Positions 1 through 23,201 of a DNA stretch of 64,000 bases are shown piece after piece. This stretch comes from Dehalococcoidia bacterium. GTDB taxonomy: Bacteria > Chloroflexota > Dehalococcoidia > Plut-88900. The position numbers and the translations under genes are program-made. Below the pieces are notes generated by a model. That model did no database searches. It saw nothing but the letters and a program-made list of their open reading frames with translations, and was not told the origin of the DNA. Within the stretch, counting starts at the first letter, position 1. Every line of letters starts with the position of its first letter. The DNA lies in assembly GCA_965197585.1 (NCBI GenBank), contig OZ240215.1:320001-384000 (forward strand), read 5' to 3'.

Positions 1-225
1 AACGGTCTGCACGAAATGGAAGGCTGATCCCCAGCCAGTGGTTGCGGCCATGGTGAGCACTCTCATCAGCTCCTCGACGGTCATGGTTACAGTGTAGGAG
101 TCGAGTGGTGAGTCTGGGTCGATCACATCAGATGGCCCTATCGATATGTCTACCTCGACGTTGTTGTCTAGTCCTGGTTCTGGGATACCCATTGTGAGAC
201 GTATAGTTGTGTTGGGCTCTAGCAT
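1..225 (-). CDS. hypothetical protein, 3' end runs off the window (MLEPNTTIRLTMGIPEPG...)
   Basis: Open frame from ATG at 225 to the window edge, with G-rich RBS (AAAGGGGGGG) just upstream; absent from the ORF track because it is truncated. Confidence 0.6.
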   Translation of the reverse strand, partial: MLEPNTTIRLTMGIPEPGLDNNVEVDISIGPSDVIDPDSPLDSYTVTMTVEELMRVLTMAATTGWGSAFHFVQTV

Positions 226-402
226 GGCCCCCCCTTTGTGGCAAGGTTTCGTCACGTTACCATTGGAGTAGTGGGTTGACAAGTGTTCGCTATTCTGTGA
301 GGTGGACCCGGAATTTCGGACAGATAGGCAAGTGAGAGGACAGCTCCTATAGGAGCGATGTCCGGCAAGCCCAAAAGAGTACTCATACCAAACTAGAGGC
401 GT

Positions 403-600
403 TCACAAAACTCTTCTCGCCCTTCCTCGCCTTCCGTCGTAGGTGTTGGCAAACACTTGGAGCCGGTCAATCTCCATGACCCATTTGTTTCCGAACTTCG
501 TGGCAGTTAGCTTGCCCTCTCGTATCAGGCGTTTCACCGTCTCTGGGTGAACATCCAGAATCTTGGAAGCCTCAATGACGTCGATGTAGTTCTCAAGCAT
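403..600 (-). CDS. excisionase-like helix-turn-helix DNA-binding protein (HTH_17/MerR-like)
   Basis: 65 aa with pattern IDVIEASKILDVHPETVKRLIREGKLTATKFGNKW. Confidence 0.85.
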   Translation of the reverse strand: MLENYIDVIEASKILDVHPETVKRLIREGKLTATKFGNKWVMEIDRLQVFANTYDGRRGRARRVL

Positions 601-734
601 CGGCCCAGCCTAGTATAATTGTTGTACTACGACATTATCATACCATGACGTGGCGACTACACATACTGGGAGCGCGACGGCGGCTCTGGCGATGGGAAGA
701 CCGTGAATAGGGCGAACGAGAGCTAGAGGCACTC

Positions 735-1316
735 ATGCCAATGTCCAAACGGCGGTTGCGACGGGAGCACCGTGCAATGCAGCGTCATCTGGCCCTGCTG
801 CGCGGGCTGATATTACTGACCGAACTTCGGCTCAGCGAGCATGATGCGGTGAAGAAGGAACTCGGCATTACGACGGTTGAGGGTAGAGAGCCGCTCCATG
901 CCCTCCGAACCTTGCTACAGACCAAGTACATGCCAGGAGACGCGAAGGCTCGAATGCTCTTCGATGAGTTTCAGGAAATTGACCTGTACGTCACCGGTCC
1001 TCTCGAACTGTACTATTGCCTGGCGCAAGCGATGGTCGAGAGGTACCGATATCTGACGGCGGATGATCCGACTCTGTGTCATCCTGACCTCGACAGCTAT
1101 CTCATCGCAAATGCACCGGCGTTCGACGCCGTGGTGAACTTGCGCGACTGGGTACTGCATCCTGGTTACTCACGCCAGTCGGATAAGGCCGTATCGATGC
1201 TCTGGGGTGAAAACGGTGAGCCCGTGGGGGATCACCCGTATACGATGGTCGCTCGCCTATTCCAGATGTTCAGCGAGTTTATGGAGAATCTCGATGAGTT
1301 CGCTCGACGAGCTTAA
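735..1316 (+). CDS. putative HEPN-like RNase domain protein
   Basis: Helical-looking protein with Rx4H motif LRDWVLHP; RBS GAGG. Confidence 0.5.
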   Translation: MPMSKRRLRREHRAMQRHLALLRGLILLTELRLSEHDAVKKELGITTVEGREPLHALRTLLQTKYMPGDAKARMLFDEFQEIDLYVTGPLELYYCLAQAMVERYRYLTADDPTLCHPDLDSYLIANAPAFDAVVNLRDWVLHPGYSRQSDKAVSMLWGENGEPVGDHPYTMVARLFQMFSEFMENLDEFARRA

Positions 1317-1902
1317 GGCCGTAAACCGGTCTTTGGACTCATTCAAGGCGTTGCGCGACGGAATAGGGTACTTGCGCTCCATTAGCGTCTGTTTTGAGCC
1401 GGATGAGGAATCTCAGTCTAGACTTTCCAGTCTAATGGCTGCACATGCCATGGCTGCTGACGGCACGTTCGACGCTGGTGAGGCTGATAAGTTGTCGCGC
1501 TCCTATTTTCGGATGATCGTGGCGTTACTTTACGGTCTCTTGTACGCCGCGCTTGAACACTATGAAGACTTAATTCAAACCAATTCCCAACTTAAGCACG
1601 AAGAGTTGGAGGCAACTCTGCATGATATGCATGAATGCGGTCTATTTGAAGCCCTGAGACGGGTGCGGAACGCTGTCTTCCACGTCAAGCCTAACGAGAG
1701 CATTGACAATCTCGTCGAAGAAGTGCGGAGGCTCTCTACTGAGCACCAGATCGTGATACGTAAGGTCGAGGACTTGCTCTACGAGAGCACGGAGCAAGTT
1801 TTCCGCGGAACAGAAATCTACCGCCAACCGCGCGAGACCTTGGAGCAGGCGTATGAAGAAGCACTTGCTTACTATCGAGAACATCTGGCCGATGAGGACT
1901 GA
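1294..1902 (+). CDS. putative HEPN-domain RNase
   Basis: Canonical RNx3H motif RRVRNAVFH; start moved to ATG 1294 (GGAG RBS), overlapping the upstream gene. Confidence 0.6.
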   Translation: MSSLDELKAVNRSLDSFKALRDGIGYLRSISVCFEPDEESQSRLSSLMAAHAMAADGTFDAGEADKLSRSYFRMIVALLYGLLYAALEHYEDLIQTNSQLKHEELEATLHDMHECGLFEALRRVRNAVFHVKPNESIDNLVEEVRRLSTEHQIVIRKVEDLLYESTEQVFRGTEIYRQPRETLEQAYEEALAYYREHLADED

Positions 1903-2078
1903 CTCGGTCAGTCATGCGACTGCAAGTGTCTGGTTCAACCCCGGCTACGGAATCTCAGAACTCTGGAAAGCCACTCAGCGAATGGCGAGTAGGCCAGACT
2001 TCGAAGAACTGATCGACTGCCCATTGACGACATCGCACGCATCCGCGAGCATGATCTATCACGAGGTCGAGGAAACCG

Positions 2079-2245
2079 ATGGCAACTCACCTGGCGACCG
2101 AGAAACACGTTACCATCCAGATCGACGGCGTGCGTGCTGGCAATCCGGGCTCTGGGCGGCTTGAAGGGGGCTGATACTCGGGGAGCATCGCCGCAGGCTC
2201 TGCGTTAGCTACCGTCGCACGACCAACAACCCCATGGTGAAGGCT
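2079..2245 (+). pseudogene. rnhA: degraded RNase HI N-terminal fragment
   Basis: KHVTIQIDGVRAGNPGSG, then after a frameshift LILGEHRRRLCVSYRRTTNNPM; these match the RNase HI motifs TDG..GNPGPGG and GY.RTTNNRMEL. Confidence 0.65.
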
Positions 2246-2444
2246 TGGTCTACGACAGCCTCTCCCCCCCAGATCGGGCAGTAACAGACCTTGGTGGTCT
2301 CATAGGGTGCTTCTGCGGGTAGGTGAACGGCAGGTATACTGATGGTTGACTCTGCGGTACAACATTGCGTCGAGAGGAGGGACGGCATTGGCATGAGACA
2401 GCACCCTTCTGTCCGCATACGGCGTTTCTGGGGGCTACGTTTAC

Positions 2445-3260
2445 ATGGCAGCGGCTAGCAGAGTGGGGCGCTATCGCACCGGCATAGCGAACCTACTTTC
2501 AAAGTTGGTAGCGGTGGTGGGTGAGTCTGAACGGCGCCTGGATGTCACTATTGAAGGAGACGAGGCTTCTGCACGAGCAGTTCTTGAAGACGATCCGACC
2601 AATGCTATTCGCATCATGTGCGGCCTGTTGCTCCGCAAATCAAGACTGCACATGATGGCAATGCTCCGTGCCAACGAAACCGGCAACGTGCATTCGCTGG
2701 CTGTTCAGATGCGTCCCGTTCTCGAGTGCGCTGGACAGGTTGTACTCATCTTCCATAATCTGATAATCGATCCGGAACGAGGTGCGAGTGTAGTCAGTGG
2801 CTACATAAACGCAGACTACTACAGAACGGTCAAGAGGCTCACGAGGGGTGACCTCAGCCACAAAGAGCTACTCACTAGGATCTCGGAGGCAAGCGGGATG
2901 TCGGAAGAGGAGTTAGTCAAGGGCAGAGGTCTTAAGCAAGCGGATAAAGTAGCACCGCTGGAGGGGGGCGAGGGCTGGTATGGATACCTGAGCGAGCGCT
3001 TCTGTCACGGGAGGGCGAACTGGAAAGGACATTCGTGGCAGGGAGGCGTCAGTACGATGAACAGGGTTCAGGACGAGTATACCTTTGCTGGTTTGATGGA
3101 CTACTTGGTGAACCAAGTAGCAGTCATGAATGCGCACGCGGCGCTGTGCCCTGTGACAGGAGAGGTGGCACAAGAGCGCGTAGAATCCGCCCTGGCTGAA
3201 TTGAGGGAGGTGCGTGCCGCGACTAAGGCGTTGCGGGACGGTGCGGGCGGGGCTGAATGA
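2445..3260 (+). CDS. DUF5677-like (HEPN-related) protein
   Basis: Motifs MRPVLE and WYGYLSERFCHG fit the R..lE and Y..LS...H pattern. Confidence 0.55.
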   Translation: MAAASRVGRYRTGIANLLSKLVAVVGESERRLDVTIEGDEASARAVLEDDPTNAIRIMCGLLLRKSRLHMMAMLRANETGNVHSLAVQMRPVLECAGQVVLIFHNLIIDPERGASVVSGYINADYYRTVKRLTRGDLSHKELLTRISEASGMSEEELVKGRGLKQADKVAPLEGGEGWYGYLSERFCHGRANWKGHSWQGGVSTMNRVQDEYTFAGLMDYLVNQVAVMNAHAALCPVTGEVAQERVESALAELREVRAATKALRDGAGGAE

Positions 3261-3290
3261 TCTCGGGAGGGAGGAAAAGGCAAGGAAGAT

Positions 3291-3845
3291 ATGACGACTA
3301 GGGAGAGCGATCAGCGCACGCGGTGCGAACGGTATCGCGACCTACTCGGTGAGCTCGCTCGTATCCACCTGGAGATTGACGAGCCGACCCGCAAGATGCA
3401 GGAAAATGAACCTGATTGGATCGGCCGCCTACGAAAGATTTGCCTTCATGTGAGGGCGATCAATGGCTGGGAAATCGGGCCCGACGTTGAGCACGTGATG
3501 GCCACAGAGATTCGGGCAGCGTACGAACAAATGGATGTCGTATGGAAGCGCTTGCCCACCACGGTCCGGCTAGACGAGATAGACGACGACTGGTGGGCCA
3601 GGGAGGCTAGCAGCGGGATGCTCGCTACGTACGATCATCCAACGCCGCAGAGCTTGATGCTTACGGCTGGGCGTGGCGGTTTCCGCAATGACGACAGCAA
3701 CATTAAACATATACAGCTTGCCTTGTGGCTAGGCCAACTCGGTCTGGGGTATGGGCTTGCTCTCGTTCACCTATCGCAGGTGCTGGGCGGCGAAGGGGAC
3801 ATCATGGCTCGCGTGACCGCCGTGGCGAGCAAGTTTGCGGGGTAA
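3291..3845 (+). CDS. hypothetical protein, possibly a degenerate DUF5677/HEPN-like protein
   Basis: 184 aa, 30 bp downstream of the previous gene; motif MLATYDHPT. Confidence 0.5.
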   Translation: MTTRESDQRTRCERYRDLLGELARIHLEIDEPTRKMQENEPDWIGRLRKICLHVRAINGWEIGPDVEHVMATEIRAAYEQMDVVWKRLPTTVRLDEIDDDWWAREASSGMLATYDHPTPQSLMLTAGRGGFRNDDSNIKHIQLALWLGQLGLGYGLALVHLSQVLGGEGDIMARVTAVASKFAG

Positions 3846-4072
3846 CCGTATTGGCGGTACGTACGGCGATTAGTGACAAGACTCCTTGCCTACTAATTCG
3901 ATCTCTAAGGGGAGCCAAGCTGAAACTACACCGAATCTGGCGCCACTATCGCTAAGGAGGCCAGAGCGGAGTCGGTTTCATGGGCATGAGTAGCGGCGAT
4001 GGTAGTTCTCGTTATGCTCGCGGAAGCCCAGCCCTTGGTCAGACTGTCAAGCTGAACCACATCTCGAAGATG

Positions 4073-4147
4073 GTTCTGTCTATCGTCAAGTTTGGTGGGC
4101 CGGGTAAGACTGAATTGCGAACTTTTCGGTGCGAGGTTTCTATCTGA
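4073..4147 (+). repeat. complete 50-bp attP-like site (4073-4122) plus integrase C-terminal tail; att copy 1
   Basis: GTTCTGTCTATCGTCAAGTTTGGT-GG-GCCGGGTAAGACTGAATTGCGAAC; left arm 18/24 identical to 63558-63581; reads VLSIVKFGGPGKTELRTFRCEVSI*. Confidence 0.8.
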
Positions 4148-4280
4148 GGACCGCCAATCCCAGCCCAACTGAGGGAGCTCCGCGTAGGTGTGGCCCCGGA
4201 GCGTGTACAGCAGGGTCCAGTCAGTCGGATCTGCAAATGACTTTCCGAACGTCGACTGCGCTTTCCGGCAGTGTGCAGAG

Positions 4281-5366
4281 CTACCGAAATTCCTCCCTGA
4301 GCATCTCAGCCGCCAGGGACTCATTCCTGAGCTTCAAGTACGCCTCGTCGAGCGGGATATCGGCAGCGCTTCCCGGCGCGAAACCGCAGTCGGGGTGCAG
4401 CAGTACCCGCTCAGGCGCGACGTATTGGACGGCCCGCCTGACGCGGGCGGCAATCTCGTCTGGCGTGTCTATGTGGCTGCTGCGGCAGTCGACGCATCCC
4501 AGACCGATATCGAAGCGTTCTGGTATGTCGCGCAATACGGCGAAGTCGCCCGCCGCCGGTATCGCAAACTCCAACATGAGAATATTGACCTTGAGACCGG
4601 CCAAGGCTTGGAGAATCGGCTCGTATCCGCCTTCGCCGACCCATCCTGCGCGACCCTTATTGCGCCGGCACAGGTGGACCGCCAACCGGACTCCGTCTAC
4701 TCCCTTGACGACGCGGTTCAGTAAGTCGACGCAGTACGCCATCTCGGCCTGCGGGTCGTCGTAGTCCGCCCGCACCTTCGGGTCCACGAACAGGCACAGG
4801 TGAGGGTCGTCAATTTGCGCCACCGCTACCCCTTCGTCGCCTAGGGCTTTGAGCTCTTGCCGAAGCACGGGCACGAGCGCCTCTGTGAAGTCACGTCGAG
4901 TGGGATACGCGGCTATTGACAGTTCGGGGTCCCACATCCGCTCACCTATCAGGTATGGCGATGGTATGGCGACCTTGACATCGCGTCCTGTATGCAGTTT
5001 GAGGAACCCTGCCTCCCTCGCTAGCAGGCCGGGGTTTGCGACTTCGATTTTCGAAGTGACGACGTGCCACGTCTGGCGCTGTCCGAGGACTTCCTTGATG
5101 GATAGATCGAACCCGCTGCAGATATCGGCTATCACCCCAACATATGACTTTCTGCGCCATTCCCCGTCGGATATGATGTCGATGCCGGCAAGCTCCTGCA
5201 TCTGCGCGACGTATGGTATGGCGGAGTCCATCATCCGCCGAAAGTCGCCCGAAGAGCCGCCCCCTTCGACCTGTGATTCAATCAGGTCTCGCACGTATCG
5301 AGGGCGCGGCATGGAGCCGATGACGGTGGTTGGGAACAGGTCTCTTTCCATTTGGCTTTCAGGCAA
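4281..5366 (-). CDS. cobalamin-independent methionine synthase II family protein (Meth_synt_2)
   Basis: TTVIGSMPRP, ISDGEWRR, QIDDP, Zn-ligand motifs HLCRRN and PDCGF. Confidence 0.9.
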   Translation of the reverse strand: MPESQMERDLFPTTVIGSMPRPRYVRDLIESQVEGGGSSGDFRRMMDSAIPYVAQMQELAGIDIISDGEWRRKSYVGVIADICSGFDLSIKEVLGQRQTWHVVTSKIEVANPGLLAREAGFLKLHTGRDVKVAIPSPYLIGERMWDPELSIAAYPTRRDFTEALVPVLRQELKALGDEGVAVAQIDDPHLCLFVDPKVRADYDDPQAEMAYCVDLLNRVVKGVDGVRLAVHLCRRNKGRAGWVGEGGYEPILQALAGLKVNILMLEFAIPAAGDFAVLRDIPERFDIGLGCVDCRSSHIDTPDEIAARVRRAVQYVAPERVLLHPDCGFAPGSAADIPLDEAYLKLRNESLAAEMLREEFR

Positions 5367-5415
5367 GATGTCGTGCGGTTTCTCTGCTCTTGGTCGGACG
5401 TGGCTCAGGAACAGG

Positions 5416-6180
5416 TTAGATCGCGAACCGCATCCAGTCGGCGGTGGCTAGATGGTAGTCCTGGATGGTGTCGACCTCATGGTAGTCACCGGGTACTGCG
5501 ACGCAGTGTACCGGAATCCCATCTCGGATCATCCGGTCGAGTAGATGAATCACATACGCCATGCGGAAGGGTCTGCCATCTGCGATGACTTGCTCATCGC
5601 CGAGTTCGGCGTGGAGTTCGTCGTAGAATTGCAGGAACTGAGAAGCGCCCTCGGCCGTCATCTTGATCACGCCCGAATACTCTCCGGATGCCTCGTGCGG
5701 CTTGATCGTCCGTGAGACCTCCACCACGCGGACGCCGTCCACGAGAATCTTCTCGGCGTCCGACTCCGGGTGCATACTCCGAAACACATACCTTTCACGC
5801 CAACGAGTGTCCATGACGAGCGTGATGTCGTGTGGCGAATCCTGAAGCGCCTTCACTGCGTCGCCGAGGTACAGCGTGTCGGTGTATGTCGCATAGAAGC
5901 CGCGAGCCATGTGTTCACGGGCACAGACCAGGGAAGCGAGGATGTTGGTCGTGGGCCAAGTGGGATTTTCCACATAGGAGAGATTTGGGTAGGCGTCCTG
6001 AACCACGTCCATGAGATACCCGCCTACGAAGACAAACCGATCCAGACCATTCTGTCGAAACGCACTTAGCGTCCAATCGAGAATTCTGGCGCCCGCTACT
6101 TCAGTAAAGCACTTTGGTTGCGACGCGGTGAAGGGCATAAGGCGTTTGCCCCGTCCGGCCCCGAGGAGGATGACGTTCAT
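5416..6180 (-). CDS. NTP transferase (LicC/phosphocholine cytidylyltransferase-like)
   Basis: ILLGAGRGKRL...PKC N-terminal motif, GEYSG, EVDTIQD. Confidence 0.85.
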   Translation of the reverse strand: MNVILLGAGRGKRLMPFTASQPKCFTEVAGARILDWTLSAFRQNGLDRFVFVGGYLMDVVQDAYPNLSYVENPTWPTTNILASLVCAREHMARGFYATYTDTLYLGDAVKALQDSPHDITLVMDTRWRERYVFRSMHPESDAEKILVDGVRVVEVSRTIKPHEASGEYSGVIKMTAEGASQFLQFYDELHAELGDEQVIADGRPFRMAYVIHLLDRMIRDGIPVHCVAVPGDYHEVDTIQDYHLATADWMRFAI

Positions 6181-6705
6181 GCCTTTGTGTCGCTCCGTAC
6201 CGCTAGTTCCCGCTCAGACTACCGAGAAATCGAGGCGGGCGCAAATCGGACCGTCACGGGGTCGAGCGTCCGCTTCTCAGACGGGCTGATGCCGAAGGAC
6301 GGCGCAGCCTGCACCGTCCGCTCAGGACGGGGTAGCGATGCCCGCTTTCGACTCGTCGACTCCGTGCGTGGCGCTCCGTCGGGGCTGCCTTGAGAGCTCA
6401 CGGTCTCCAGCGAGCGGTACGAGAGTTCGAACACCCACGTCGGTTCACACCAGAGGCGAAGGTCCCTGCTTGCGAGCGGGCCCTGGACTCCACGGCGACA
6501 GAGCGGTCGCTGAGATTCCGTTCAACGCAGAACCTCCCCGTCCGAACAGCTCCCAGACGCTGGAGGTGAGGATCAGAACGGTGTCAGGACGACGCCTGTA
6601 GTCATACTCCGCTATGGGCTCTCAGCCGGTTCGTAGAGTGACCGGCGCCGTCGGGCCAGACCTTGGCGGACCACGCCGAACCTGCGACCGTCGTGGAGGG
6701 GTGAT

Positions 6706-6759
6706 GGTGGGCCTAAGAAGACTGAATTGCGAATTTTTCGGTGGGAGGTCCTCATATAA
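6706..6759 (+). repeat. attP right-arm / integrase tail; att copy 2
   Basis: 42/54 identical to 4094-4147; reads GGPKKTELRIFRWEVLI*. Confidence 0.8.
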
Positions 6760-6854
6760 GAGTCGGTCAGCCGACTCCAGATAAGTCCCCACGAGCCTCT
6801 GCTGGCGCAGGGCTGGACCGCGACTGCAGTGGGTGAGGCCCTGAGCAAGCATGC

Positions 6855-9323
6855 TCATCCCGTTGGCTGGTGGGCCACTGATTCGTTGAGGTCAGCGTTC
6901 CGGTCAACGCGCCACTTAATGTTTTCTATTTCGTAAGACAACATCGAACTCATAGGTAACCAATTGAAACCGTCTGAGGCGCTCTCCAAGTTGACCCATT
7001 GTGAATCTAAGTACTGGCGGAATGCTTCCGCCCTCGCCAATCGGTCATTTATATAGGCCACATCCGAAATTTTATCCCGCCATTCCCTTGCAACGATAGG
7101 TGTGTCTACCACTACCGCGTCAACATAAGTAAATTTGCCAATAAGTTTTTGGTAGTAATAGGAGCCTATTGTAGTGATCCTGTAGCGGCGCGGTTGAAAG
7201 TCGAACCGTTCCCCGACAACGTCCTTGGTTTCTGTTTCTACCAATTTCTGAGCGAGCAATTTTTCTAGTACGCCTGCTATTTGGATAGGTTGAAAACCGA
7301 GGGATTGGGCATACGCGTAGATCTCCTCAGCGTCGACGTATCCGCTGTTAGCCGGTGGCCTTGCTTCCGATCCGATGAACGCCAAAGCGATCGGTCCCAA
7401 GAAATGTTCCCTACCGTCCGGAGACCGTATGTCGAACAAATTCGCGATTTCGGATGCCCTTGGATCGTAATCTCGTTGATCACCATAGATCACTGCCCGC
7501 AAAAATTCATGCAAGGGTACTGTGTACGAGCCAGAATCGCGGTAAATTTCCAATATCTTACCCGTGTCGACGTTTCCACTGCCCACAAACACCCGGATGA
7601 AATCTAACGCCAGCCGGATGTTGCCTCCGCAAACGTTATCTACGAATTCGATCAATTCGACATTCTTGTCAAATGACAATTTAGTAACGCTCAGAAAATC
7701 CGATAAATCGTCGAGATTGACCGACATGCCCACGCCTTCAATCGATTGTCCGATCTGTCCAAGTGCCAAGAGATTGATTGCATATTGCAATCTTTTCTGT
7801 ATCACTCTATCGACCCTAGGTGGACTAATCGTAAACGCTTTGACATGGTACGCACTCAACGCCCCTCCAGCTTTTGATTTGTGAAAGGTTTCGGGGCGCA
7901 AAGAAACAAACACCATGGCTGGCCAAAGTTCGGCCATACTTTGACCGATCAAAAACGCTTTCTGCTGAAAATCGTCAGTGCGTTGGTCGACGTTGTCCAG
8001 AAATATCACGATCTGCTGTTTTCGCCCTTTGTGGATGTGTTCCAGGCACCGCTTAAGGTGTTCCTGCGTGTTGCTTATCTTGGATTCTAGAAGCGCAATT
8101 CTTTTCAGCTCGTATTCTGGTCGATTCAACTCGCGAAGGGACCCGTAGATGCCTTTATCAAACGATTGTAGATCGACGTTGTAGACGCCATGGACAAAAT
8201 TGCGGTCAGTAATGTCGATGGAGTACAACTCGTCTAACTGCCGCGAAATTTCTTCTTGGAGATAATGGTCTAACTCCGCTTCTAACGTTGGTTTGACACC
8301 CAAGTCTAGATACAGAATGATTGCGTCTTTGAGTATGTCCGCGGCCTCCACGTTGATGAAGTAGCGAACGAACATGGTCTTACCGACACCAACGTCACCG
8401 ATCAGTAATACAGGCCGACGAGTGGCACTCTGGGCCAACATCTCTGCAGTAATGACGGACTTCCCGCCTTTCTCTGTCGCCGGAGACAGCGATGGACCAG
8501 ATAAAGACTCTTGGAATGCTACAGAATATCTGGTTTGGAGAATGGATTTGCTGATCAGTGCGTATTGCGAAAGGGCACCGCTGTCGGCATAACAAGCGGT
8601 CAAAAACTCTTTCTCGTTCGGTGGAAGTTTACCCACGTCTTCGATGATCAGATCGCCAAAAATCTGTAGGTTTGATTGAAGTTCGTTGCGGACCTGATGT
8701 CTGGGGTAGTTATGTACTCGAACTGATAGCTTGTCCGGCGGAGGTCGATCGCCAGTGTTCTGGAGACGTGAGGCTAAGCCTCTAGCGGATACACCGTGAT
8801 GAGACAAGCAATCCCACAAGTCTCGGAATCCGTCGCGCATGTGGACCAGAGACGGTAACACCAAAGCTTGGCCTTTCATTGGTGCGATGCTGTCGGTGCG
8901 GCTCGCCAAGAACCCAACTATTTGATGACCATTGCAAACTGCACCGAAAGGAACTCCCCTTGTTTGACAATATGCCATCGCTTGCTCGACAGCTTTGAAT
9001 ACGTCGGGCGCTTCTCTCCGGAATCTTTCGAGCGGGTAGAAAAGGCCGTCAAACCCGGCAGGGATCGAAAAGTATACGTCCTCTTTCTTGGCTTCAACGA
9101 TAAGGGTTACGGAAGGTTTTCCGAGAGAGTAATCGGTATATGTGCCTTCGTGATTGTCCTCATTGGCGCAGTCCCATTTGTCCCACCCGAGGCACTCAAA
9201 CAGTAAGCGATCAATAAACTGAAGCCTCGTCGTCGCCTCATTCCTGTACGCTTCGTCAACCTCGGCAACTTCTGTAATGAGGTTGTCGAGGTTTTTTAGT
9301 GATTCCAAGTAATCAACTGCCAT
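6855..9323 (-). CDS. HsdR_N-like PD-(D/E)xK nuclease fused to a P-loop ATPase; candidate defence protein
   Basis: NEATTR..IDRLL..LGW, TDY..IVEAKK at the N-terminus; Walker A GDVGVGKT, Walker B IFLDNVD; visibly more AT-rich than the flanks. Confidence 0.75.
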   Translation of the reverse strand: MAVDYLESLKNLDNLITEVAEVDEAYRNEATTRLQFIDRLLFECLGWDKWDCANEDNHEGTYTDYSLGKPSVTLIVEAKKEDVYFSIPAGFDGLFYPLERFRREAPDVFKAVEQAMAYCQTRGVPFGAVCNGHQIVGFLASRTDSIAPMKGQALVLPSLVHMRDGFRDLWDCLSHHGVSARGLASRLQNTGDRPPPDKLSVRVHNYPRHQVRNELQSNLQIFGDLIIEDVGKLPPNEKEFLTACYADSGALSQYALISKSILQTRYSVAFQESLSGPSLSPATEKGGKSVITAEMLAQSATRRPVLLIGDVGVGKTMFVRYFINVEAADILKDAIILYLDLGVKPTLEAELDHYLQEEISRQLDELYSIDITDRNFVHGVYNVDLQSFDKGIYGSLRELNRPEYELKRIALLESKISNTQEHLKRCLEHIHKGRKQQIVIFLDNVDQRTDDFQQKAFLIGQSMAELWPAMVFVSLRPETFHKSKAGGALSAYHVKAFTISPPRVDRVIQKRLQYAINLLALGQIGQSIEGVGMSVNLDDLSDFLSVTKLSFDKNVELIEFVDNVCGGNIRLALDFIRVFVGSGNVDTGKILEIYRDSGSYTVPLHEFLRAVIYGDQRDYDPRASEIANLFDIRSPDGREHFLGPIALAFIGSEARPPANSGYVDAEEIYAYAQSLGFQPIQIAGVLEKLLAQKLVETETKDVVGERFDFQPRRYRITTIGSYYYQKLIGKFTYVDAVVVDTPIVAREWRDKISDVAYINDRLARAEAFRQYLDSQWVNLESASDGFNWLPMSSMLSYEIENIKWRVDRNADLNESVAHQPTG

Positions 9324-9608
9324 TGTTGGCCCCTCGATTTGTAGGTTCTACGCCGCTCCCGCGAGCCAAACCCTTAGAATATGCTGCCCAGAGGTAAGGC
9401 ACAATCCACGATACATCGCACGCGCATCTAGGTCAACGAAACTGATTGTACCGGCCTCTTCCCGGCTTTGATCGCTATTCCAATTCCAAGCTGAACGGCG
9501 AATCGAACGGTGACGCGGTAGCGGCTGCTGCCCAAGGCAGACCATTGGCTTCATTGGAACATCGGATATCAACTCTGCCCAATAGAACAGAGACTTCGCG
9601 GTCGGCGG

Positions 9609-9693
9609 GTTATGAATTCAGTCTTGTTAGGTCGAAGAAAGTGGGCTAGAGGGGACTGTACTGCGAACTTTTTGTTGGGAAGTGTCGCTGTAG
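9609..9693 (+). repeat. attP left arm (9609-9632), ~10 extra nt, right arm/integrase tail (9640-9693); att copy 3, likely left boundary of the ICE
   Basis: Left arm 16/24 identical to 63558-63581 (reads VMNSVLLG); tail 35/54 identical to 4094-4147 (reads SGLEGTVLRTFCWEVSL*). Confidence 0.7.
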
Positions 9694-9954
9694 GGAAGCG
9701 GAGTTGGTCAAGCGAGACTCTTCCAGGAGAAGGGCCGGTAGGCCTGCGGGGCCTGCGATGCCCACCTTGAGACGGGCTCCCGGGCATTCACCCTCCAGGA
9801 CTTTGCCGGCCAGTATGTCGGCTATGTCTGTCCGCCGTGCCATCCCAACCGCAAGTGGATGAACACCCTGTGGCGCAGCGTCCTCGGAGATGACTGGGCC
9901 ATCCAGCAGAGTCAGCAGACCCTGTCCGTCAACATTTTGACGCGCACAGTCCAT
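9646..9954 (-). CDS. hypothetical protein; 3' end overlaps att copy 3
   Basis: TAATG coupling to the upstream gene; may be truncated by recombination at the att site. Confidence 0.45.
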   Translation of the reverse strand: MDCARQNVDGQGLLTLLDGPVISEDAAPQGVHPLAVGMARRTDIADILAGKVLEGECPGARLKVGIAGPAGLPALLLEESRLTNSASLQRHFPTKSSQYSPL

Positions 9955-10925
9955 TAGATGATCTGGTCGACCTGCTCGTCAGAGAGGAAGTCCAGCGCAG
10001 CTTGCAGGTCTGATTTCTCCTGTCCGGGCGGCTGGGAGGGCAGCATCTCAAACCATGGCTCAGCAAGGTCATCGCGCACCCGCAAGAGGGGGGACCTCAG
10101 GAGGCTCAGAGTCGAAGAGGGCTGGAGCAGGCGGCCACCAGGGGTCATCTCGTAGGCGAAATGCAGCATAGGAGTGCCTCTCCAGCCGGGATAGGTCACG
10201 GTCGGCTTGGGTGTCACTCTGACACCGGAACTAGAAGCAGCTCGACCAATAATGTAGCTTAGAGTTCCATGAACAAGTCGTGCTGCTTCCTCATTGGCGT
10301 TCGTGCTATCGCCTAATAGACAGTCAATGACCTCTCTGGTCTCTCCGCTCACCTCTTTCCTCTCTTCAGACAGGAACTGTCGCATCTCATGCTTGTCTCT
10401 TCGGCCGTAACGCGACTCGACCGTAAGGATGAGAAGCCACGGCTGGTGCGCATCCAAGCGGTCATCGTTAAATAGGCGGTACAGAGCGTTGGCCCTATTC
10501 CGCACTACTCGGCCGCCCCTCTCGTAGGGTAGAAACTTCCCAAAGTAGTCCAAATAGACGACATCAAAATCCCAGATGTACCCCACACCGCGTTGATAGC
10601 TGTTCGAAACATGCCTCGGTGAGGGCCCCTTGCCCTTGTTCGTTAGTATGACGCGGTCGACGTCCCCTAGATGGGCTCTGGGCCGTAGGTGCCCATACTC
10701 AGTGCTAAGGACATGTTGCAGTCTCCTAAAGTTCCCGTGGCAAAACTCGACGGCGGCTACATACTCGCAAAGGTCACCCCAACTCTTTAGGTCTAGTGCC
10801 TGTACTCCGGGCAGCCCGAAGTACCGGATCGGGCCTCTCTTTCGGCGATGGGCGGCTTGGACTAATGGAAGGTCGTACTTTTCTCGAACTAGGTCCTTGG
10901 CTCTGCTGGACTGATAGCGCCCCAT
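9954..10925 (-). CDS. putative SAM-dependent methyltransferase-fold protein
   Basis: Rossmann-like motifs RYFGLPG..LD, VAAVE, HLGDVD, FDVVYLDYFG. Confidence 0.55.
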   Translation of the reverse strand: MGRYQSSRAKDLVREKYDLPLVQAAHRRKRGPIRYFGLPGVQALDLKSWGDLCEYVAAVEFCHGNFRRLQHVLSTEYGHLRPRAHLGDVDRVILTNKGKGPSPRHVSNSYQRGVGYIWDFDVVYLDYFGKFLPYERGGRVVRNRANALYRLFNDDRLDAHQPWLLILTVESRYGRRDKHEMRQFLSEERKEVSGETREVIDCLLGDSTNANEEAARLVHGTLSYIIGRAASSSGVRVTPKPTVTYPGWRGTPMLHFAYEMTPGGRLLQPSSTLSLLRSPLLRVRDDLAEPWFEMLPSQPPGQEKSDLQAALDFLSDEQVDQII

Positions 10926-10935
10926 CGGCCGTACT

Positions 10936-12798
10936 TTAGATCTCTCTTTCTTCAGCTACAGAGTCGGCAATGGCACGCAGGACCGCCTCATACGCTTCGC
11001 CTCTTCCTCCAAGTCCTGCAACCAGCCCCCGATCAATTGCCCTGACAAGGCTCTCCTCATCAGCCTCCAAGTTGACTCCCTGCTGCACAAGGGCCTCCTC
11101 CAGCGAAACCGGTGCCTCCGCGGACCATCCCACAGCAACCCTCAGCTCCTTCCGGCAGGTTTCCACATCAGAATCCAGTTCGATACCGTCCGCCTTCAGC
11201 TCATCGAGAACGCCGACAGCCCGAGCCATCGCAACTGACTTCACGTGTGGCTGCAGCTCTGCCACCGCTCCCTTGAGTCGAGGCTCGCCAGAGTCCTCTG
11301 ATAGCGCCTCAACCGCCTCTAGAGTCCTGCGGAGTAGATCAGATTGGGGCGGGGGCTGCTTTGTCTGCTGCTTCTGCTTCTCGGTTCTCTGGTGCGCAGA
11401 CCTCTTCACCTGATTCAGCTGCGCCATCCAACCTTCTAGCCCCTTGAGAGCGTCCTCCAGTGCCTCCTGTTGGGCTACATCGAACCTCGGCTTCGGGCGA
11501 CCCCTGGTCGCCCTCATATGCCTCTCAATCTCTGCGTGTACATTTTCTAGTCCGCCGTGATGGGTTACAGCTTTCCTGTACACTTCAAAGGGGTCTGCGT
11601 CTGGAGCATCCTTCTCGATTCTCAGCTGCGCAACTATCCCTTCCATGTTGTCCAGGAGGCGCTCAGCACGTGCGCTTGCCTGCATGGCTCGTGCCTTACG
11701 GCTCATGGGATAGAAGAAGTCAGAGAGCTGTTTCTCGAAGAGTTGTTTACCGGGGTTGCTTTCCAAGTCGTCTCGAGCCGCGTTGGGATAGAGCCTTCCT
11801 GAGTCCAGAAGATGGACCTCGCCTGTATAGTGATGGTATAGGCTTCGTCCTCCAGTGGCAGGCCAGAGCGGCTTGAGCAGGTCTCGTCTACCCAAGGTGA
11901 ACCCTTTCATCTTCAGAAGGAATCCGCTTACCATAGCCCCTTCGTCCTGAGAAGGGATCTGTCGCCCGTTTGTGGATAGGGCATACCAGACAAACGCCAT
12001 CGGAGTACCATCTGGATGGTTGATCCAACCAATCTCGGGGCGGTAGACAGCTGCAGCCACGGGCGGCAAGACGTTTATCTCAACCTCTTCTGCGATTCTC
12101 AGGGTGACCCGGACCGGATTCAACTCCACATGGTCGACGAGCCATCCGTTGACCGTGCCTCCATAGCCCTCTGTACCAAACGCAACAGGGACCGTATTCA
12201 GCAGGTAATTGTTTACCTCTGAAGCATCATTCAGCTGAGCACGATACTCTTCATCGATCCCTTCAAGCTCCACAACAGTGAAATGGTCGTCAGGGCTACC
12301 TCTGTAGGGCTCCTCAAATAGTTCTGTGTATTCAAGCATGAGACCCGGCAGTCCAATCCCCTGCCTGATATCAAAGCTCTTGTCGGATTCAAGCAGGCGG
12401 CGCATCTCACCAAACCGAAATCTCCAGCCGACCAGGCCGGACATGCCCTCCTGGCGGCTTGAAATGGTCATCTCATCGCAGATACCGAATGCCGAGTAGA
12501 TTCCTATACCGCGAAACCCTACCGCCTGCATAGGGCTCTTGGCAGATAACCCAAATCTTCGCGCGTCTCGCATCTCATTGAGGTCCATCCCCGTCCCATC
12601 ATCTCTGATGACCGCCCGAGAGCCATCCACAGTGATAATGATGTTCCGAGCCTTGGCATCCACGCCATTCTGAACATACTCTCTCAGCGCGTCCTTCGCG
12701 TCGGAGTACAGGCCGCGAGACAGAATGTCGAGCAGCTCACCTCCAACCTCCCAGCTTTGAAACTGGACAGTCTGAGTCTTACGCTCACTTTGGGTCAT
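10936..12798 (-). CDS. GHKL (HSP90/MORC-like) ATPase, copy 2
   Basis: GLYSD...REYVQNGVDA, IRDDGTGM, GFRGIG, PNAARD; C-terminal coiled coil; start moved to ATG 12798 (GGAGG RBS). Confidence 0.85.
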   Translation of the reverse strand: MTQSERKTQTVQFQSWEVGGELLDILSRGLYSDAKDALREYVQNGVDAKARNIIITVDGSRAVIRDDGTGMDLNEMRDARRFGLSAKSPMQAVGFRGIGIYSAFGICDEMTISSRQEGMSGLVGWRFRFGEMRRLLESDKSFDIRQGIGLPGLMLEYTELFEEPYRGSPDDHFTVVELEGIDEEYRAQLNDASEVNNYLLNTVPVAFGTEGYGGTVNGWLVDHVELNPVRVTLRIAEEVEINVLPPVAAAVYRPEIGWINHPDGTPMAFVWYALSTNGRQIPSQDEGAMVSGFLLKMKGFTLGRRDLLKPLWPATGGRSLYHHYTGEVHLLDSGRLYPNAARDDLESNPGKQLFEKQLSDFFYPMSRKARAMQASARAERLLDNMEGIVAQLRIEKDAPDADPFEVYRKAVTHHGGLENVHAEIERHMRATRGRPKPRFDVAQQEALEDALKGLEGWMAQLNQVKRSAHQRTEKQKQQTKQPPPQSDLLRRTLEAVEALSEDSGEPRLKGAVAELQPHVKSVAMARAVGVLDELKADGIELDSDVETCRKELRVAVGWSAEAPVSLEEALVQQGVNLEADEESLVRAIDRGLVAGLGGRGEAYEAVLRAIADSVAEEREI

Positions 12799-13133
12799 GG
12801 ATTGTACCTCCGTGTCCACATCACACCTACGGTGCGCCGATCGTCTGCTCGCGTTCGACCCTGGCCACCGCACTCCTCAACCGATAGTTGTCTTACGCCG
12901 CCCACAGAAATCAGATAGTTCGCCTCTCGATGACTGTCTTCACACATGCCATGGGCTATTGCGGTGGAGGGCGACGTCAGCAACACGCTTCGTGATCCTG
13001 GGAGGATAGTCCGCTGGGGCACGCTCGTCAAGGTTGACGAATGCAAGCGACGGTTTGTACAGATAAGTGCATTGTCAACACGGAGAATGAGGCTCAAAGC
13101 CCCGGTTCATGGCAGCCCCTCAATTAACCGCAT

Positions 13134-14141
13134 CTACCGTCCACGCTGCCTGTTAATGCGTTCAATGGACTGCTGGATCTTTCCAACCTCGTATAGGCAC
13201 TTGTCCTGCTGCTCAGGGGACATTCGCTCCAGGTCGGCCATGAACTCAGAGACCTGCAGTTCGCCTCTGAATCGCTTGAACCGGCGCAGCCAAATGTTTT
13301 TGACGCCACGGTCTTGAGCACTCTCGAATGCCCTATCAAATGTCTTGTCGCCGGACAGGAGGATCTTGGTAGGCTCTGACCCCACTTTTGCCACGTCGAG
13401 GAGTTTGACCAGCTTGTTTCTGACATCCACAGCGGCTGGAATTTCCCTGTGCTTAATCTTTACAACAACAATGTCATCAAGCGCCGGGTTTTCCCGACGA
13501 GCCTTTCTCACTATGTTGGACTTCAAGTACTCATCGTAGTAACTCCACCGTGTAACGCTGGTCTCATCGTGTTCAACCATGAACTTGTATGTGCTGATTA
13601 GGTGGTTCACCGTTCTCACCGGTATTCCCATCTCGCTTGCCATACTCTCGGCACTGACCCCATGGGTGACATTCCTGCGGTATAGGTACCCCGCCTGTTC
13701 GTAGGGAGCCCAGTCCTTTCTGCCGATGATATGGTATTCACCGAGCAGCGCAAACACGAGCTTCTCGCTGATGTCAGAAGGCAGCAATCGAACTTTGGCC
13801 TTGCCCCAGTTTATGGCGTCGTTTCTAGCAAGCTCGCGGTACGCGGCAAGCCGGCTGTTTCCTTCAAGCACTACGAGGTCGCCATCCTTCACAAGCATGG
13901 GGTCGGTCAGTCCTCCGTTTGCCCTGATCGACTGAATTAGTTGCTTGACGTGGTCCAACCCCTTCAGACGATTGAATATCTCATCCTGGGACGGTTCAAC
14001 ACCCGGCCTTTGGATTAGCGAATAAATCCTTGGGTTCTCTGAATAAAAGCTGAGGTCGTGGACTGGAAGATACCCGCTCCGAACCGGTATCTCCTGACCA
14101 CCAAGTGTAAGGGTGTCGTTTACCCACGTAGAATCAGCCAT
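13134..14141 (-). CDS. ParB/Srx-like N-terminal domain protein, copy 2
   Basis: NPRI, SIRANGGLTDPMLV, VVLEGNSRLAA, WAPYEQAGYL. Confidence 0.8.
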   Translation of the reverse strand: MADSTWVNDTLTLGGQEIPVRSGYLPVHDLSFYSENPRIYSLIQRPGVEPSQDEIFNRLKGLDHVKQLIQSIRANGGLTDPMLVKDGDLVVLEGNSRLAAYRELARNDAINWGKAKVRLLPSDISEKLVFALLGEYHIIGRKDWAPYEQAGYLYRRNVTHGVSAESMASEMGIPVRTVNHLISTYKFMVEHDETSVTRWSYYDEYLKSNIVRKARRENPALDDIVVVKIKHREIPAAVDVRNKLVKLLDVAKVGSEPTKILLSGDKTFDRAFESAQDRGVKNIWLRRFKRFRGELQVSEFMADLERMSPEQQDKCLYEVGKIQQSIERINRQRGR

Positions 14142-14162
14142 TATCCGTGTCTCCCGATTGGT

Positions 14163-20355: not shown

Positions 20356-20599
20356 CAGGACCTCCTAGGAAGCGACCGTGCATTAGATTCGGAGGCTATT
20401 CTATGCCAATAACAGGTTGGTTGCATTCCTTTGTGTAAATTGGCTCGCACCGAATGTGCGATTGCACTTTTGAATGCTTTCAAGGGCAGAAAAATACTTT
20501 GGCTCGATTTATTGATGTATCGATACTTCCATGATTTACGGTCTTCAAGATCGAAAGTCGCGTCTGAATTCTGCTCAGTCTTGATGAAGCTCTGAATCT

Positions 20600-20727
20600 T
20601 CCTCGCCTTTCACCATGCGGTATCCGACGCGGCGCTCGGTGAAAATGTAGGCGGGATGGTCAGGGTCGTAGCTCAGCTTGCGCCGGAGCTGCTTCGCCGC
20701 AGTGCGGACCCGCTGCAAGTCGCCGAA
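20600..20727 (-). pseudogene. OmpR/KdpE-type winged-helix C-terminal fragment
   Basis: GDLQRVRTAAKQLRRKLSYDPDHPAYIFTERRVGYRM with no start and no receiver domain. Confidence 0.7.
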
Positions 20728-20842: not shown

Positions 20843-20853
20843 AGGGCAAGGCA

Positions 20854-22300: not shown

Positions 22301-22301
22301 A

Positions 22302-23142: not shown

Positions 23143-23201
23143 GCTTGTTTTAGGCCGCTGCAGCGTTTCCGACTCTCACGGCTACGCTCCGCCCGCTCCC
23201 C

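What the first reader, a model, noticed from the sequence alone, without database searches (positions are those of the whole stretch)
4073..9693. Integron-like array of integrase-free cassettes separated by serine-recombinase att sites
Seen: three direct 54-bp repeats at 4094-4147, 6706-6759 and 9640-9693 (copies 2 and 3 are 42/54 and 35/54 identical to copy 1). Copies 1 and 3 are preceded by a 24-bp arm homologous to the arm at the integrase/tRNA junction 63558-63581 (18/24 and 16/24). Copy 1 is a symmetric 24+2+24 bp site with inverted GTTC..GTC / GAC..GAAC ends. No integrase remnant is readable next to these arms. The sites separate compact gene units: a HEPN-like cluster (left of 4073), Meth_synt_2 + NTP transferase (4097-6708), and an HsdR_N-ATPase (6709-9632, right arm on its left and left arm on its right, like a minimal element). 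Known: large serine recombinase attP sites are about 50-bp imperfect inverted repeats, and tandem integration at one target leaves attP-like junctions. Inferred: the tRNA-Glu locus accumulates small non-autonomous, mostly defence-type cassettes mobilised in trans by the ICE integrase. The alternative is that these are relics of serial ICE integration followed by deletion.
Basis: partly seen in the sequence, partly recalled or inferred. Interest (0 to 1): 0.92.

Follow-up and report, generated by a model that had tools for sequence, protein, structure and literature searches.

The report
Serine-integrase att sites bounding island modules
The three repeats are the element-side halves of attachment sites of a serine-integrase family that inserts mobile islands at tRNA genes in Dehalococcoidia; they mark seams of an 84-kb patchwork island, a pattern already described in related bacteria and not a new integron-like system.

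Summary
The repeats are real (42/54 and 35/54 identities; best chance match in the window 29/54). They are 3 of 14 copies of a ~55-nt 'core' in this genome, and the core is multi-copy in 10 of 11 sister genomes.

The core is the P' (element-side) half-site of large-serine-recombinase (LSR) attachment sites, plus about 30 nt that would close the integrase reading frame in the excised circle.
- Two further core copies sit exactly where the flanks of tRNA-Glu(CTC) and tRNA-Glu(TTC) are displaced, by 84 kb and 83 kb, relative to empty sites in relatives.
- Pairing each with the integrase-side arm gives 50-bp pseudo-palindromes and frames of 548-551 aa.
- In 50 of 80 related LSR loci the gene end abuts an antisense tRNA.

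So 4073-9693 is the inside of a composite island whose true left junction lies 20.6 kb left of the window.
- The arm left of copy 1 is the far end of a complete, inverted 24.5-kb LSR element, not an integrase-free cassette.
- Unit 4148-6705 holds a truncated ICE backbone gene.
- Unit 6706-9631 has both element ends but no integrase.

Metagenome contigs show other partners at these seams, which is compatible with mobilisation but does not prove it. Close precedents exist: Dehalococcoides ssrA islands, cis-mobilizable elements (CIMEs) and SCC arrays.

The parts
1..4096 (-). Distal 4.1 kb of element E2. E2 is a 24.5-kb LSR element inserted in inverted orientation. Its integrase int3 lies at genome 301231-299456, about 18.8-20.5 kb left of the window.
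   Evidence: int3 is 65% identical to int1. The int3-proximal ~13 kb of E2 (genome 299.5-312.6 kb, left of the window) is collinear, inverted, with the int2 island backbone. Both E2 junctions share GGTGGGCC. Frame closure across the ends gives 551 aa. ORFs in 735-3955 have no Pfam family.
4057..4096 (-). P' half-site of E2 (4073-4096) plus its conserved extension (4057-4072), read on the minus strand.
   Evidence: 19/23 identical to the int3 P arm. Its reverse complement matches the P' arm and extension that follow the integrase in 6 of 80 related LSR loci. 100% copies of 4057-4103 occur in sister genome G003.
4094..4147 (+). Core copy c1: identity segment GGTGGGCC, P' half-site ending in TGCGAAC (to 4122), then a tail-coding extension ending in the stop TGA (4145-4147).
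4148..6705 (-). Unit 1, with no integrase: Meth_synt_2 (4281-5366), NTP_transf_3 (5416-6180), and a truncated winged-helix ICE backbone gene (6252-6698, aa 141-289 of about 382).
   Evidence: Pfam. tblastn of the full-length relative. Alignment with four relatives shows homology ending inside the shared TGATGGTGG at the c2 junction.
6706..6759 (+). Core copy c2 (P' half-site plus tail extension, stop TAA at 6757-6759). Its left neighbour is not a recognisable half-site.
6760..9608 (-). Cargo of unit 2: one 822-aa NACHT/AAA-type ATPase gene (6855-9323).
   Evidence: Pfam hits are all below the curated cut-offs. Homologues were found in 4 of 400 other Dehalococcoidia genomes, the best at 49-50% identity.
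9590..9632 (+). Relic of an LSR gene 3' end, with the P arm at 9609-9631. This is the right end of unit 2.
   Evidence: 15/23 to the int2 P arm and a reading ..RVMNSV.. against ..RVMSTV.. in int2. 18/23 symmetric with the c2 P' arm (my count on the strings). 16/24 to 63558-63581.
9633..9639 (.). Part of about 11 nt of extra spacing between the P arm and the GTGGGC of c3. It has no counterpart in the three validated sites and is unexplained.
   Evidence: A similar spacer appears in the metagenome joint 9628->6707 (table 5c).
9640..9693 (+). Core copy c3 (P' half-site plus tail extension, stop TAG at 9691-9693). It is a candidate left end of the int1 ICE.
   Evidence: The reverse complement of its arm shares GTTC and TACAGTCC.CTCTA with the int1 P arm.
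9694..63581 (+). The int1 ICE. Variable cargo lies at 9.7-30.3 kb (HATPase_c_3, SNF2, ParB_N, radical-SAM-like). The conserved backbone lies at 30.3-63.6 kb. LSR int1 is at 61986-63635 and its P arm at 63558-63581.
   Evidence: Pfam. Backbone collinear with the int2 island.
63578..63654 (-). tRNA-Glu(CTC), which is the B' side of attR. The int1 frame ends inside its antisense strand.
   Evidence: ARAGORN and Rfam. Homology with relatives starts exactly at 63578.

Best explanation
Identity of the repeat. The 54-bp repeat is the element-side right half (P') of the attachment site of a Dehalococcoidia family of large serine recombinases (LSRs) that integrate at the 3' ends of tRNA genes. It has three parts:
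- a short identity segment, (T)GGTGGGCC, shared with the target;
- a half-site of about 24 nt that ends in ..CTGCGAAC and is the inverted partner of the arm inside the integrase gene's 3' end;
- about 30 further nt that are read only after excision. In the circle the integrase frame runs across attP into this stretch and stops at a fixed codon.

The region. 4073-9693 lies inside an 84.2-kb composite island at tRNA-Glu(CTC), spanning genome 299,36x-383,578. Its order is:
1. attL (host flank joined to a core copy, 20.6 kb left of the window);
2. a nested, inverted 24.5-kb LSR element E2 that ends at 4096;
3. c1;
4. unit 1;
5. c2;
6. unit 2 with a relic P arm;
7. c3;
8. the int1 ICE;
9. attR at the tRNA.

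The two units. Units 1 and 2 are deletion derivatives of LSR elements. They kept one end (unit 1) or both ends (unit 2) but no integrase.

Shown versus inferred.
- Shown: the half-site identity, the island limits, the nesting of E2, and the truncated backbone gene.
- Inferred: units 1 and 2 can still be excised or carried along by a resident LSR of matching specificity, in cis with a neighbour or in trans, as cis-mobilizable elements are.
- Inferred: the change of integrase C-terminus between the integrated and circular states matters for function.

The confidence given applies to the shown parts. For the inferred mobility of the units I would give about 0.4.
For: 1. Family. nhmmer finds 14 copies in the genome. 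The 25-nt motif hits 10 of 11 other genomes of the family and 1 of 29 genomes from other families. That is 64 hits in all, against 0 hits for the reversed control.
2. Island limits. Relatives match the window only from 63578, the tRNA 3' end. The tRNA's other flank in G001-G005 is orthologous to genome 297.4-299.0 kb, which ends just left of core copy g299. The same holds for tRNA-Glu(TTC): the left flank of core g2584 ends 62 nt from that tRNA in G004.
3. Symmetry and frame. Joining each integrase-side arm to its core gives 50-nt sites with 19/24 (int1 with g299) and 18/24 (int2 with g2584) symmetric arms. The frames become 548 and 548 aa, against 549 and 607 aa when integrated. int3 joined to the c1 left arm gives 551 aa, against 571 aa. 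The three circular tails resemble each other.
4. The stop lies 9 codons after CGA in 19 of 21 core copies in the 20 loci fetched (3 of them from G000), using TAA, TAG and TGA. No long frame ever ends there; the upstream open stretch is 9-96 codons.
5. Among 80 related LSR loci, 50 end against an antisense tRNA, covering 15 isoacceptors. 6 end against a P' arm of the c1-left type. The commonest integrase-side arm, GTTCGCAGTACAGTAC, is the exact reverse complement of the core's invariant 16-mer.
6. The distal ..CGAAC motif lies 6 nt further out in the core than in the tRNA T-loop. This fits the roughly 5-bp outward shift of the zinc-ribbon motif in attP relative to attB (PMC3783163, passages read).
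7. int1 has Resolvase, Recombinase and Zn_ribbon_recom domains.
8. Unit 1 carries a truncated backbone gene. The two arms of unit 2 are 18/23 symmetric (strings).
9. Contigs of four runs, laid at 90% likeness, show other partners at the same seams. Examples are 9628->6707, 9634->4095, a palindromic E2-type site behind 4089, and a tRNA-like end behind 6700.
Against: - No recombination, circle or excision has been shown for this genome. The joints come from short contigs laid at 90% likeness with short sides. The tool itself warns that such joints often stem from other organisms or repeats, so they may only reflect homologous seams in related genomes.
- The left neighbour of c2 is not a half-site.
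- c3 is separated from its P arm by about 11 extra nt.
- c1-c3 carry a GGTGGGC(C)-type identity segment, while the only intact LSRs in the island use TGGTAG (int1) or sit at a GGTGGGCC site in the opposite orientation (int3). A cognate enzyme for mobilising the units is therefore not identified.
- Which core, g299 or c3, is the true partner of int1 is not settled. Both pair with its arm.
- The centre dinucleotides are inferred from symmetry only.
Confidence: 0.8

Rival explanations
1. An integron-like capture system exists at tRNA-Glu: small, mostly defence-type cassettes are collected one by one at the tRNA and moved in trans by the ICE integrase int1.
For: The sites are LSR half-sites in direct orientation. 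Two units lack integrases. Unit 2 has both ends. The joints 9628->6707 and 9634->4095 exist in metagenome contigs.
Against: The int1 junctions share TGGTAG, whereas c1-c3 start with GGTGGGC(C). The unit left of c1 is a full LSR element with its own integrase. Unit 1 carries a truncated ICE gene and metabolic-type domains (Meth_synt_2, NTP_transf_3), not defence domains. No cassette promoter, no attC and no tyrosine IntI are present. The second island, at tRNA-Glu(TTC), has only one core, its attL, in 83 kb.
Confidence: 0.12
2. Pure scars. The seams are dead relics of serial integrations, nested insertions and deletions. The units are fixed and no longer move.
For: A truncated backbone gene abuts c2 inside a 9-nt microhomology. 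The left side of c2 is not a half-site. About 11 nt of extra spacing lies at c3. No integrase remnant is detected. The NACHT-type gene was not found in 11 sister genomes.
Against: All three copies keep the invariant half-site and an in-frame stop. Contigs from other studies join the same seams to other partners. These include a tRNA-like end directly behind 6700, and unit 1 pieces with 6 differences in 924 nt in run X1.
Confidence: 0.3
3. The repeat is a gene product in its own right, either a small structured RNA or terminator or a short peptide gene ending ..TVLRTFRWEVSI, unrelated to recombination.
For: Strong conservation extends about 30 nt beyond a normal 25-nt half-site, and the stop is at a fixed place.
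Against: No Rfam match even at E<=5. A hairpin around the stop is no better than in shuffles, with mean stem 4.25 against 4.19. There is no conserved start and the upstream open stretch varies from 9 to 96 codons. The invariant 16-mer is the exact inverted partner of integrase-side arms.
Confidence: 0.03

Closest known systems
Dehalococcoides ssrA genomic islands with the DsiB serine recombinase (McMurdie et al. 2011, PMC3146451; passages read)
   Same: Same bacterial class. A roughly 540-aa serine recombinase gene overlaps the 3' end of a tRNA-like target. Several islands lie in tandem within 100 kb. Some islands lack an integration module and were proposed to be cis-mobilizable by accretion. 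The authors noted that the integrase stop codon is unclear and that the gene may be complete only on the circle.
   Different: The targets here are ordinary tRNAs: Glu in this genome and 15 isoacceptors across 80 related loci, not ssrA. There is no 20-bp direct repeat, only a 6-8-nt shared segment flanked by pseudo-palindromic arms. Here the circular-form frame end is supported by a conserved stop and tail. One member is nested in inverted orientation. I did not compare the proteins with DsiB.
Cis-mobilizable elements (CIMEs) and accretion-mobilisation of streptococcal ICEs. The concept is recalled. Reviews PMC5704250 and PMC7563491 were seen only in the search listing.
   Same: Units flanked by att sites lack recombination and transfer genes and sit in tandem with an autonomous element.
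   Different: Those systems use tyrosine integrases with direct-repeat att sites. Here the enzyme is a serine integrase, whose rules normally forbid site pairings other than attP x attB or attL x attR (PMC3783163).
SCC / SCCmec composite islands moved by Ccr large serine recombinases. This is recalled. It is also mentioned in PMC3146451, and PMC6222049 was seen in the listing.
   Same: LSR-driven cassettes accumulate in arrays at one chromosomal site, and some members lack their own recombinase.
   Different: The target is the end of a protein gene (rlmH/orfX), the hosts are Firmicutes, and two recombinases (CcrAB) are needed. None of this was tested here.
Phage-type large serine integrase att sites (A118/LI integrase model, PMC3783163; passages read)
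   Same: Pseudo-palindromic attP of about 50 bp with 25-bp half-sites. The distal motif lies nearer the centre in attB.
   Different: Here the integrase frame itself crosses the site, and the attB half is a tRNA T-arm and acceptor stem.
Integrons
   Same: Arrays of gene units separated by recombination sites.
   Different: No tyrosine IntI, no attC hairpin sites and no common promoter. Unit contents include relic backbone genes.

Membership tests
Large serine recombinase attachment site (P' half of attP/attL) | An LSR with Resolvase, Recombinase and zinc-ribbon domains encoded next to the partner arm | tested here: met
   int1 has PF00239, PF07508 and PF13408, all above cut-off. Paralogues int2 and int3 are 70% and 65% identical.
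Large serine recombinase attachment site (P' half of attP/attL) | Junctions coincide with the limits of an insertion relative to empty sites | tested here: met
   tRNA-Glu(CTC). tRNA-Glu(TTC).
Large serine recombinase attachment site (P' half of attP/attL) | Reconstructed attP is a pseudo-palindrome of about 50 bp | tested here: met
   19/24 and 18/24 symmetric arms. For int3 with the c1 left arm, the two arms are 19/23 identical.
Large serine recombinase attachment site (P' half of attP/attL) | The distal recognition motif lies about 5 bp nearer the centre in attB than in attP | tested here: met
   ..CGAAC ends 6 nt further out in the core than in the tRNA T-loop. The rule comes from PMC3783163.
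Large serine recombinase attachment site (P' half of attP/attL) | Recombination by the cognate enzyme | not testable with these tools
   Needs an assay.
Cis-mobilizable element / integrase-less island in an accretion array | Both element ends present, no recombinase gene | tested here: met
   Met for unit 2: c2 P' plus the P arm at 9609-9631, and no LSR by tblastn. Only partly met for unit 1, whose right end is a truncated gene.
Cis-mobilizable element / integrase-less island in an accretion array | A neighbouring autonomous element with the same site specificity | tested here: inconclusive
   int1 uses TGGTAG. int3 sits at a GGTGGGCC site but in inverted orientation.
Cis-mobilizable element / integrase-less island in an accretion array | Excision or co-transfer observed | tested here: inconclusive
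   The joints 9628->6707 and 9634->4095 occur in contigs laid at 90% likeness. They may come from related genomes.
Dehalococcoides ssrA-GI (DsiB) family | Integration at ssrA with a 20-bp direct repeat | tested here: not met
   The target is tRNA-Glu. The tmRNA gene is elsewhere, at 1,082,944. Only 6-8 nt are shared at the junctions.
Dehalococcoides ssrA-GI (DsiB) family | Six-gene integration module including a second small serine recombinase | not tested
   Only scattered Pfam scans were run. A ParB_N protein exists at 16068-17135, but not next to the integrase.
Integron | Tyrosine integrase IntI with attI, attC sites and a cassette promoter | tested here: not met
   The only recombinases found in or beside the island are serine recombinases. 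The sites are LSR half-sites.

The most novel reading that the evidence does not exclude
The P' end of these elements may be a small functional module with two roles.

1. It supplies the last ~17 codons and the stop of the integrase only in the excised circle. The enzyme would then carry a tRNA-antisense-encoded tail when integrated and a P'-encoded tail when free. This would be a built-in sensor of integration state that could bias directionality.
2. In its long form it carries, 60-70 nt downstream, a decoy tRNA T-arm and acceptor end that serves as a landing pad for further LSR elements. E2 and a tiny older relic sit exactly at such decoys next to the attL of this island.

Together these roles would make a self-extending array in which integrase-less units are shuffled among sponge-, coral- and marine-associated Dehalococcoidia.
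Probability: 0.25. Interest if true: 0.75.

Novelty: new variant of a known kind. Interest (0 to 1): 0.55.

Why it matters
- The finding gives exact, testable attP/attB pairs for three natural serine integrases. It also points to a large related family: at least 582 relatives, with 15 tRNA isoacceptors as targets among 80 loci. That is of interest for island annotation in uncultured Dehalococcoidia and as a source of site-specific integrases.
- McMurdie et al. asked in 2011 whether such integrase genes are complete only on the circle. Conserved-sequence evidence here supports that idea.
- The result corrects the map of this locus. The island is 84 kb, contains a nested inverted element, and extends beyond the window.
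- It does not reveal a new kind of gene-capture system.

Tried and rejected
- tRNA or tmRNA fragment reading of the core. ARAGORN and Rfam see only tRNA-Glu in the window. No core copy lies at one of the 50 tRNA/tmRNA genes of the genome. The resemblance to an antisense tRNA 3' end is explained by half-site mimicry.
- Known RNA family. cmscan at E<=1 on 8 loci and at E<=5 on 3800-9900 gave nothing relevant.
- Hairpin around the conserved stop. It is not better than in shuffles. The MFE folds of the long forms showed nothing consistent.
- C-terminus of a real gene family. No long frame ends at the stop.
- Decayed integrase genes next to the arms. tblastn at E<=50 shows only noise in window 1-13000.
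- IS, MITE or omega-RNA ideas for the 290-bp units at 155, 428 and 499 kb were dropped. These units begin with an antisense tRNA-Ser 3' end and lie beside tyrosine integrase-like ORFs.
- Cassette spread by homology. The NACHT-type protein was found in 4 of 400 other class genomes. No att-like arm or tRNA was seen in the short flanks held for those 4 loci. This is uninformative.
- DNA of 3300-9800 in 11 sister genomes matched only the sites, the backbone-gene fragment and distant Meth_synt_2 homologues.
- Read depth. Summed contig depth is much higher at the sites and over unit 1 than in the flanks, and run X1 has almost no cover left of 4004 or over unit 2. The tool states that contig depth cannot rank parts and that missing cover proves nothing, so I draw no conclusion from either.
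- The skip joint 4102->9641 (one contig, side 20) is too weak to use.
Supplementary files of papers were not opened. The supplements of PMC3146451 and PMC3783163 may hold site alignments that bear on the comparison.

Full report
OBSERVATION

The three 54-bp direct repeats exist at the stated coordinates. c1-c2 is 42/54 and c1-c3 is 35/54, while the best unrelated match of c1 in the window is 29/54. The arm 4073-4096 matches the integrase/tRNA junction arm 63558-63581 at 18/24. The arm before copy 3 reaches 16/24 only at 9609-9632, not at 9616-9639.

Of the gene labels:
- Meth_synt_2 and an NTP transferase are confirmed.
- The 822-aa ORF gives only sub-threshold NACHT/AAA hits.
- Five ORFs left of 4073 give no Pfam family.

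A DISPERSED, CONSERVED FAMILY

The window is G000:C1:320001-384000 of a 3.43-Mb single-contig genome. A profile of the repeat finds 14 copies genome-wide. The invariant 25-nt motif occurs in 10 of 11 other genomes of the same family and in 1 of 29 genomes of other families in the class. That is 64 hits, against 0 for the reversed control.

In the frame ..CTG CGA ACT TTT CGG TGG.. a stop follows 9 codons after CGA in 19 of 21 copies in the 20 loci fetched (3 of those copies are from G000). The stops are TAA, TAG or TGA. The upstream open stretch is only 9-96 codons, so no ordinary gene ends there.

No Rfam family matches. A hairpin around the stop is no better than in shuffles.

WHAT THE CORE IS

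int1 (61986-63635) is a large serine recombinase with Resolvase, Recombinase and Zn_ribbon_recom domains. Its frame ends inside the antisense strand of tRNA-Glu(CTC). The genome holds two paralogues:
- int2 lies at tRNA-Glu(TTC).
- int3 lies on the minus strand, 18.8-20.5 kb left of the window.

Sister genomes match the window only from 63578, the tRNA 3' end. The other flank of that tRNA in G001-G005 is orthologous to genome 297.4-299.0 kb. About 84.2 kb is therefore inserted. Its left junction is the host flank joined, at a shared TGGTAG, to core copy g299.

The same pattern holds for int2. The left flank of core g2584 ends 62 nt from tRNA-Glu(TTC) in G004, which makes an 83-kb island in G000.

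Joining each integrase-side arm to its core has three results:
- It gives 50-nt sites with 19/24 and 18/24 symmetric arms.
- It closes the frames at 548 and 548 aa, against 549 and 607 aa when integrated.
- It yields tails that resemble each other.

Across 80 related LSR loci from Dehalococcoidia MAGs (one search confirmed 582 relatives):
- 50 end against an antisense tRNA, covering 15 isoacceptors.
- 6 end against a P' arm of a second type.
- 13 of the 24 'other' loci, by my reading of the rows, end against a third type.

The commonest integrase-side arm is the exact reverse complement of the core's invariant 16-mer. The distal ..CGAAC lies 6 nt further out in the core than in the tRNA T-loop. 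This fits the attP/attB rule of Rutherford et al. (PMC3783163, passages read).

I conclude that the core is a P' half-site plus the circular-form end of the integrase gene.

ANATOMY OF 1-9.7 KB

E2. The int3 P arm and the c1 left arm are 19/23 identical and face outwards. Both junctions share GGTGGGCC. Joining them closes int3 at 551 aa, against 571 aa when integrated. The c1 left arm with its 16-nt extension is the reverse complement of the second-type P' seen behind integrases in 6 loci. The int3-proximal part (genome 299.5-312.6 kb) is collinear, inverted, with the int2 island backbone. So window 1-4096 is the far end of a complete, inverted 24.5-kb element, E2.

Where E2 sits. E2 lies at a tRNA-like T-arm/acceptor mimic. 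This mimic follows the attL core by about 190 nt, with a small older relic in between. Similar mimics lie 60-70 nt behind long-form cores at g2584, g499, g428 and in several relatives.

Unit 1 (4148-6705). It carries two enzyme genes and aa 141-289 of a winged-helix gene. Full copies of that gene lie in the int1 ICE (56256-), in the int2 island and elsewhere, and it is multi-copy in relatives. Homology with it stops inside TGATGGTGG at c2.

Unit 2 (6706-9631). It has c2 on its left and a relic LSR end with a P arm on its right. The two arms are 18/23 symmetric, but about 11 extra nt precede c3.

The int1 ICE. Right of c3 lies the int1 ICE. Its backbone (30.3-63.6 kb) is collinear with the int2 island.

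POPULATION HINTS

24 public runs from 16 studies hold part of 3800-9900. Their labels include sponge, coral and marine metagenomes. Contigs of four runs were laid at 90% likeness. They show:
- joints 9628->6707 (two runs);
- joints 9634->4095 (two runs);
- tandem cores;
- behind 4089, a second inverted arm, which is an E2-type palindromic site;
- behind 4098, a tRNA-like end;
- behind 6700, a tRNA-like end that is not a tRNA of G000.

Pieces of unit 1 in run X1 differ at 6 of 924 positions. These data show that the seams have other partners in nature. By the tool's own caveats they cannot show excision from this genome.

MECHANISM AND RIVALS

Best reading: the region shows serial and nested LSR integration, followed by deletions that left integrase-less units with one or both ends. 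Such units may still move with or through a matching LSR. That last step is inferred.

The strict integron-like reading fails on site specificity, on the identity of the leftmost 'cassette', and on the content of unit 1. The 'dead scars' reading remains possible. The RNA or peptide reading is very unlikely.

COMPARISON AND NOVELTY

McMurdie et al. 2011 (PMC3146451, passages read) described, in the same class:
- tandem islands at ssrA with a 540-aa serine recombinase overlapping the target;
- islands without integration modules, proposed to be cis-mobilizable by accretion;
- the idea that the integrase may be complete only on the circle.

CIMEs and SCC arrays are further precedents, cited here from recall and from search listings.

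What is different here:
- ordinary tRNAs serve as targets across a large family;
- the att sites are defined by pseudo-palindromes, not by a long direct repeat;
- sequence evidence supports the circular-form frame end;
- there are possible decoy tRNA landing pads;
- one member is nested and inverted.

I rate this a new variant of a known kind, with moderate interest.

LIMITS
- There is no experiment.
- Centre dinucleotides are inferred.
- The partner of int1 could be g299 or c3.
- The extra spacer at c3 and the non-site left of c2 are unexplained.
- Paper supplements were not seen.

Noticed in passing
genome 154749-155096, 428506-428910, 499974-499689, 3384475-3384190, 762174-762333 (outside the window; loci L001-L004, L010): A roughly 290-bp conserved unit begins with the antisense 3' end of tRNA-Ser and ends in a core copy. 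Two copies lie beside tyrosine-integrase-like ORFs ending ..QQWADF/..KQWADYL. They look like junctions where tyrosine-integrase islands and LSR P' modules meet. The g428 copy is followed by a sub-threshold antisense tRNA (Rfam 25.8 bits).
   Followed up: partly
sister genomes G006, G011, G001, G003: The LSR family is strongly expanded in some relatives: 36 matches in G006, 13 in G011, 7 in G003, 6 in G001 and 1 in G005. Many copies form convergent pairs whose 3' ends meet or overlap, for example G006:C3:23297-24856(+) with 24841-26406(-). Two integrase genes would then share one palindromic site.
   Followed up: no
genome 299421-299580 (locus L009; just right of the island's attL): Two successive tRNA-like T-arm/acceptor mimics lie on the plus strand. 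Each is abutted by an inverted integrase-side arm: one is a ~75-nt relic and the other is int3. Repeated insertion into the decoy of the previous element is suggested.
   Followed up: partly
window 6252-6698 (-), 56232-57893 (+); genome 488346, 813973, 259459, 2655225: A winged-helix (MarR_2 / HTH_IclR N-terminus) protein of about 380 aa is a multi-copy backbone gene of these elements. More than 10 copies occur in G006. Its role is unknown.
   Followed up: partly
window 10936-20355 (-): The ICE cargo holds a run of minus-strand genes with two HATPase_c_3 proteins, an SNF2 helicase, a ParB_N protein and a weak radical-SAM hit. It looks like a defence-type cluster but was not typed against PADLOC.
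   Followed up: no
window 25768-30009 (+): A 1413-aa protein with three fn3 and three PPC domains lies at the border between ICE cargo and backbone.
   Followed up: no
genome 2665771-2667594 (int2): In the integrated state the int2 frame runs on through the whole antisense tRNA-Glu(TTC) to 607 aa. Across the reconstructed circle junction it stops at 548 aa.
   Followed up: yes
genome 460497-460622 (locus L005/L028): Two core copies lie in tandem 66 nt apart. The first is preceded by an inverted third-type P' arm. Similar tandem-core contigs occur in runs X19, X21 and X22 (table 5c).
   Followed up: partly
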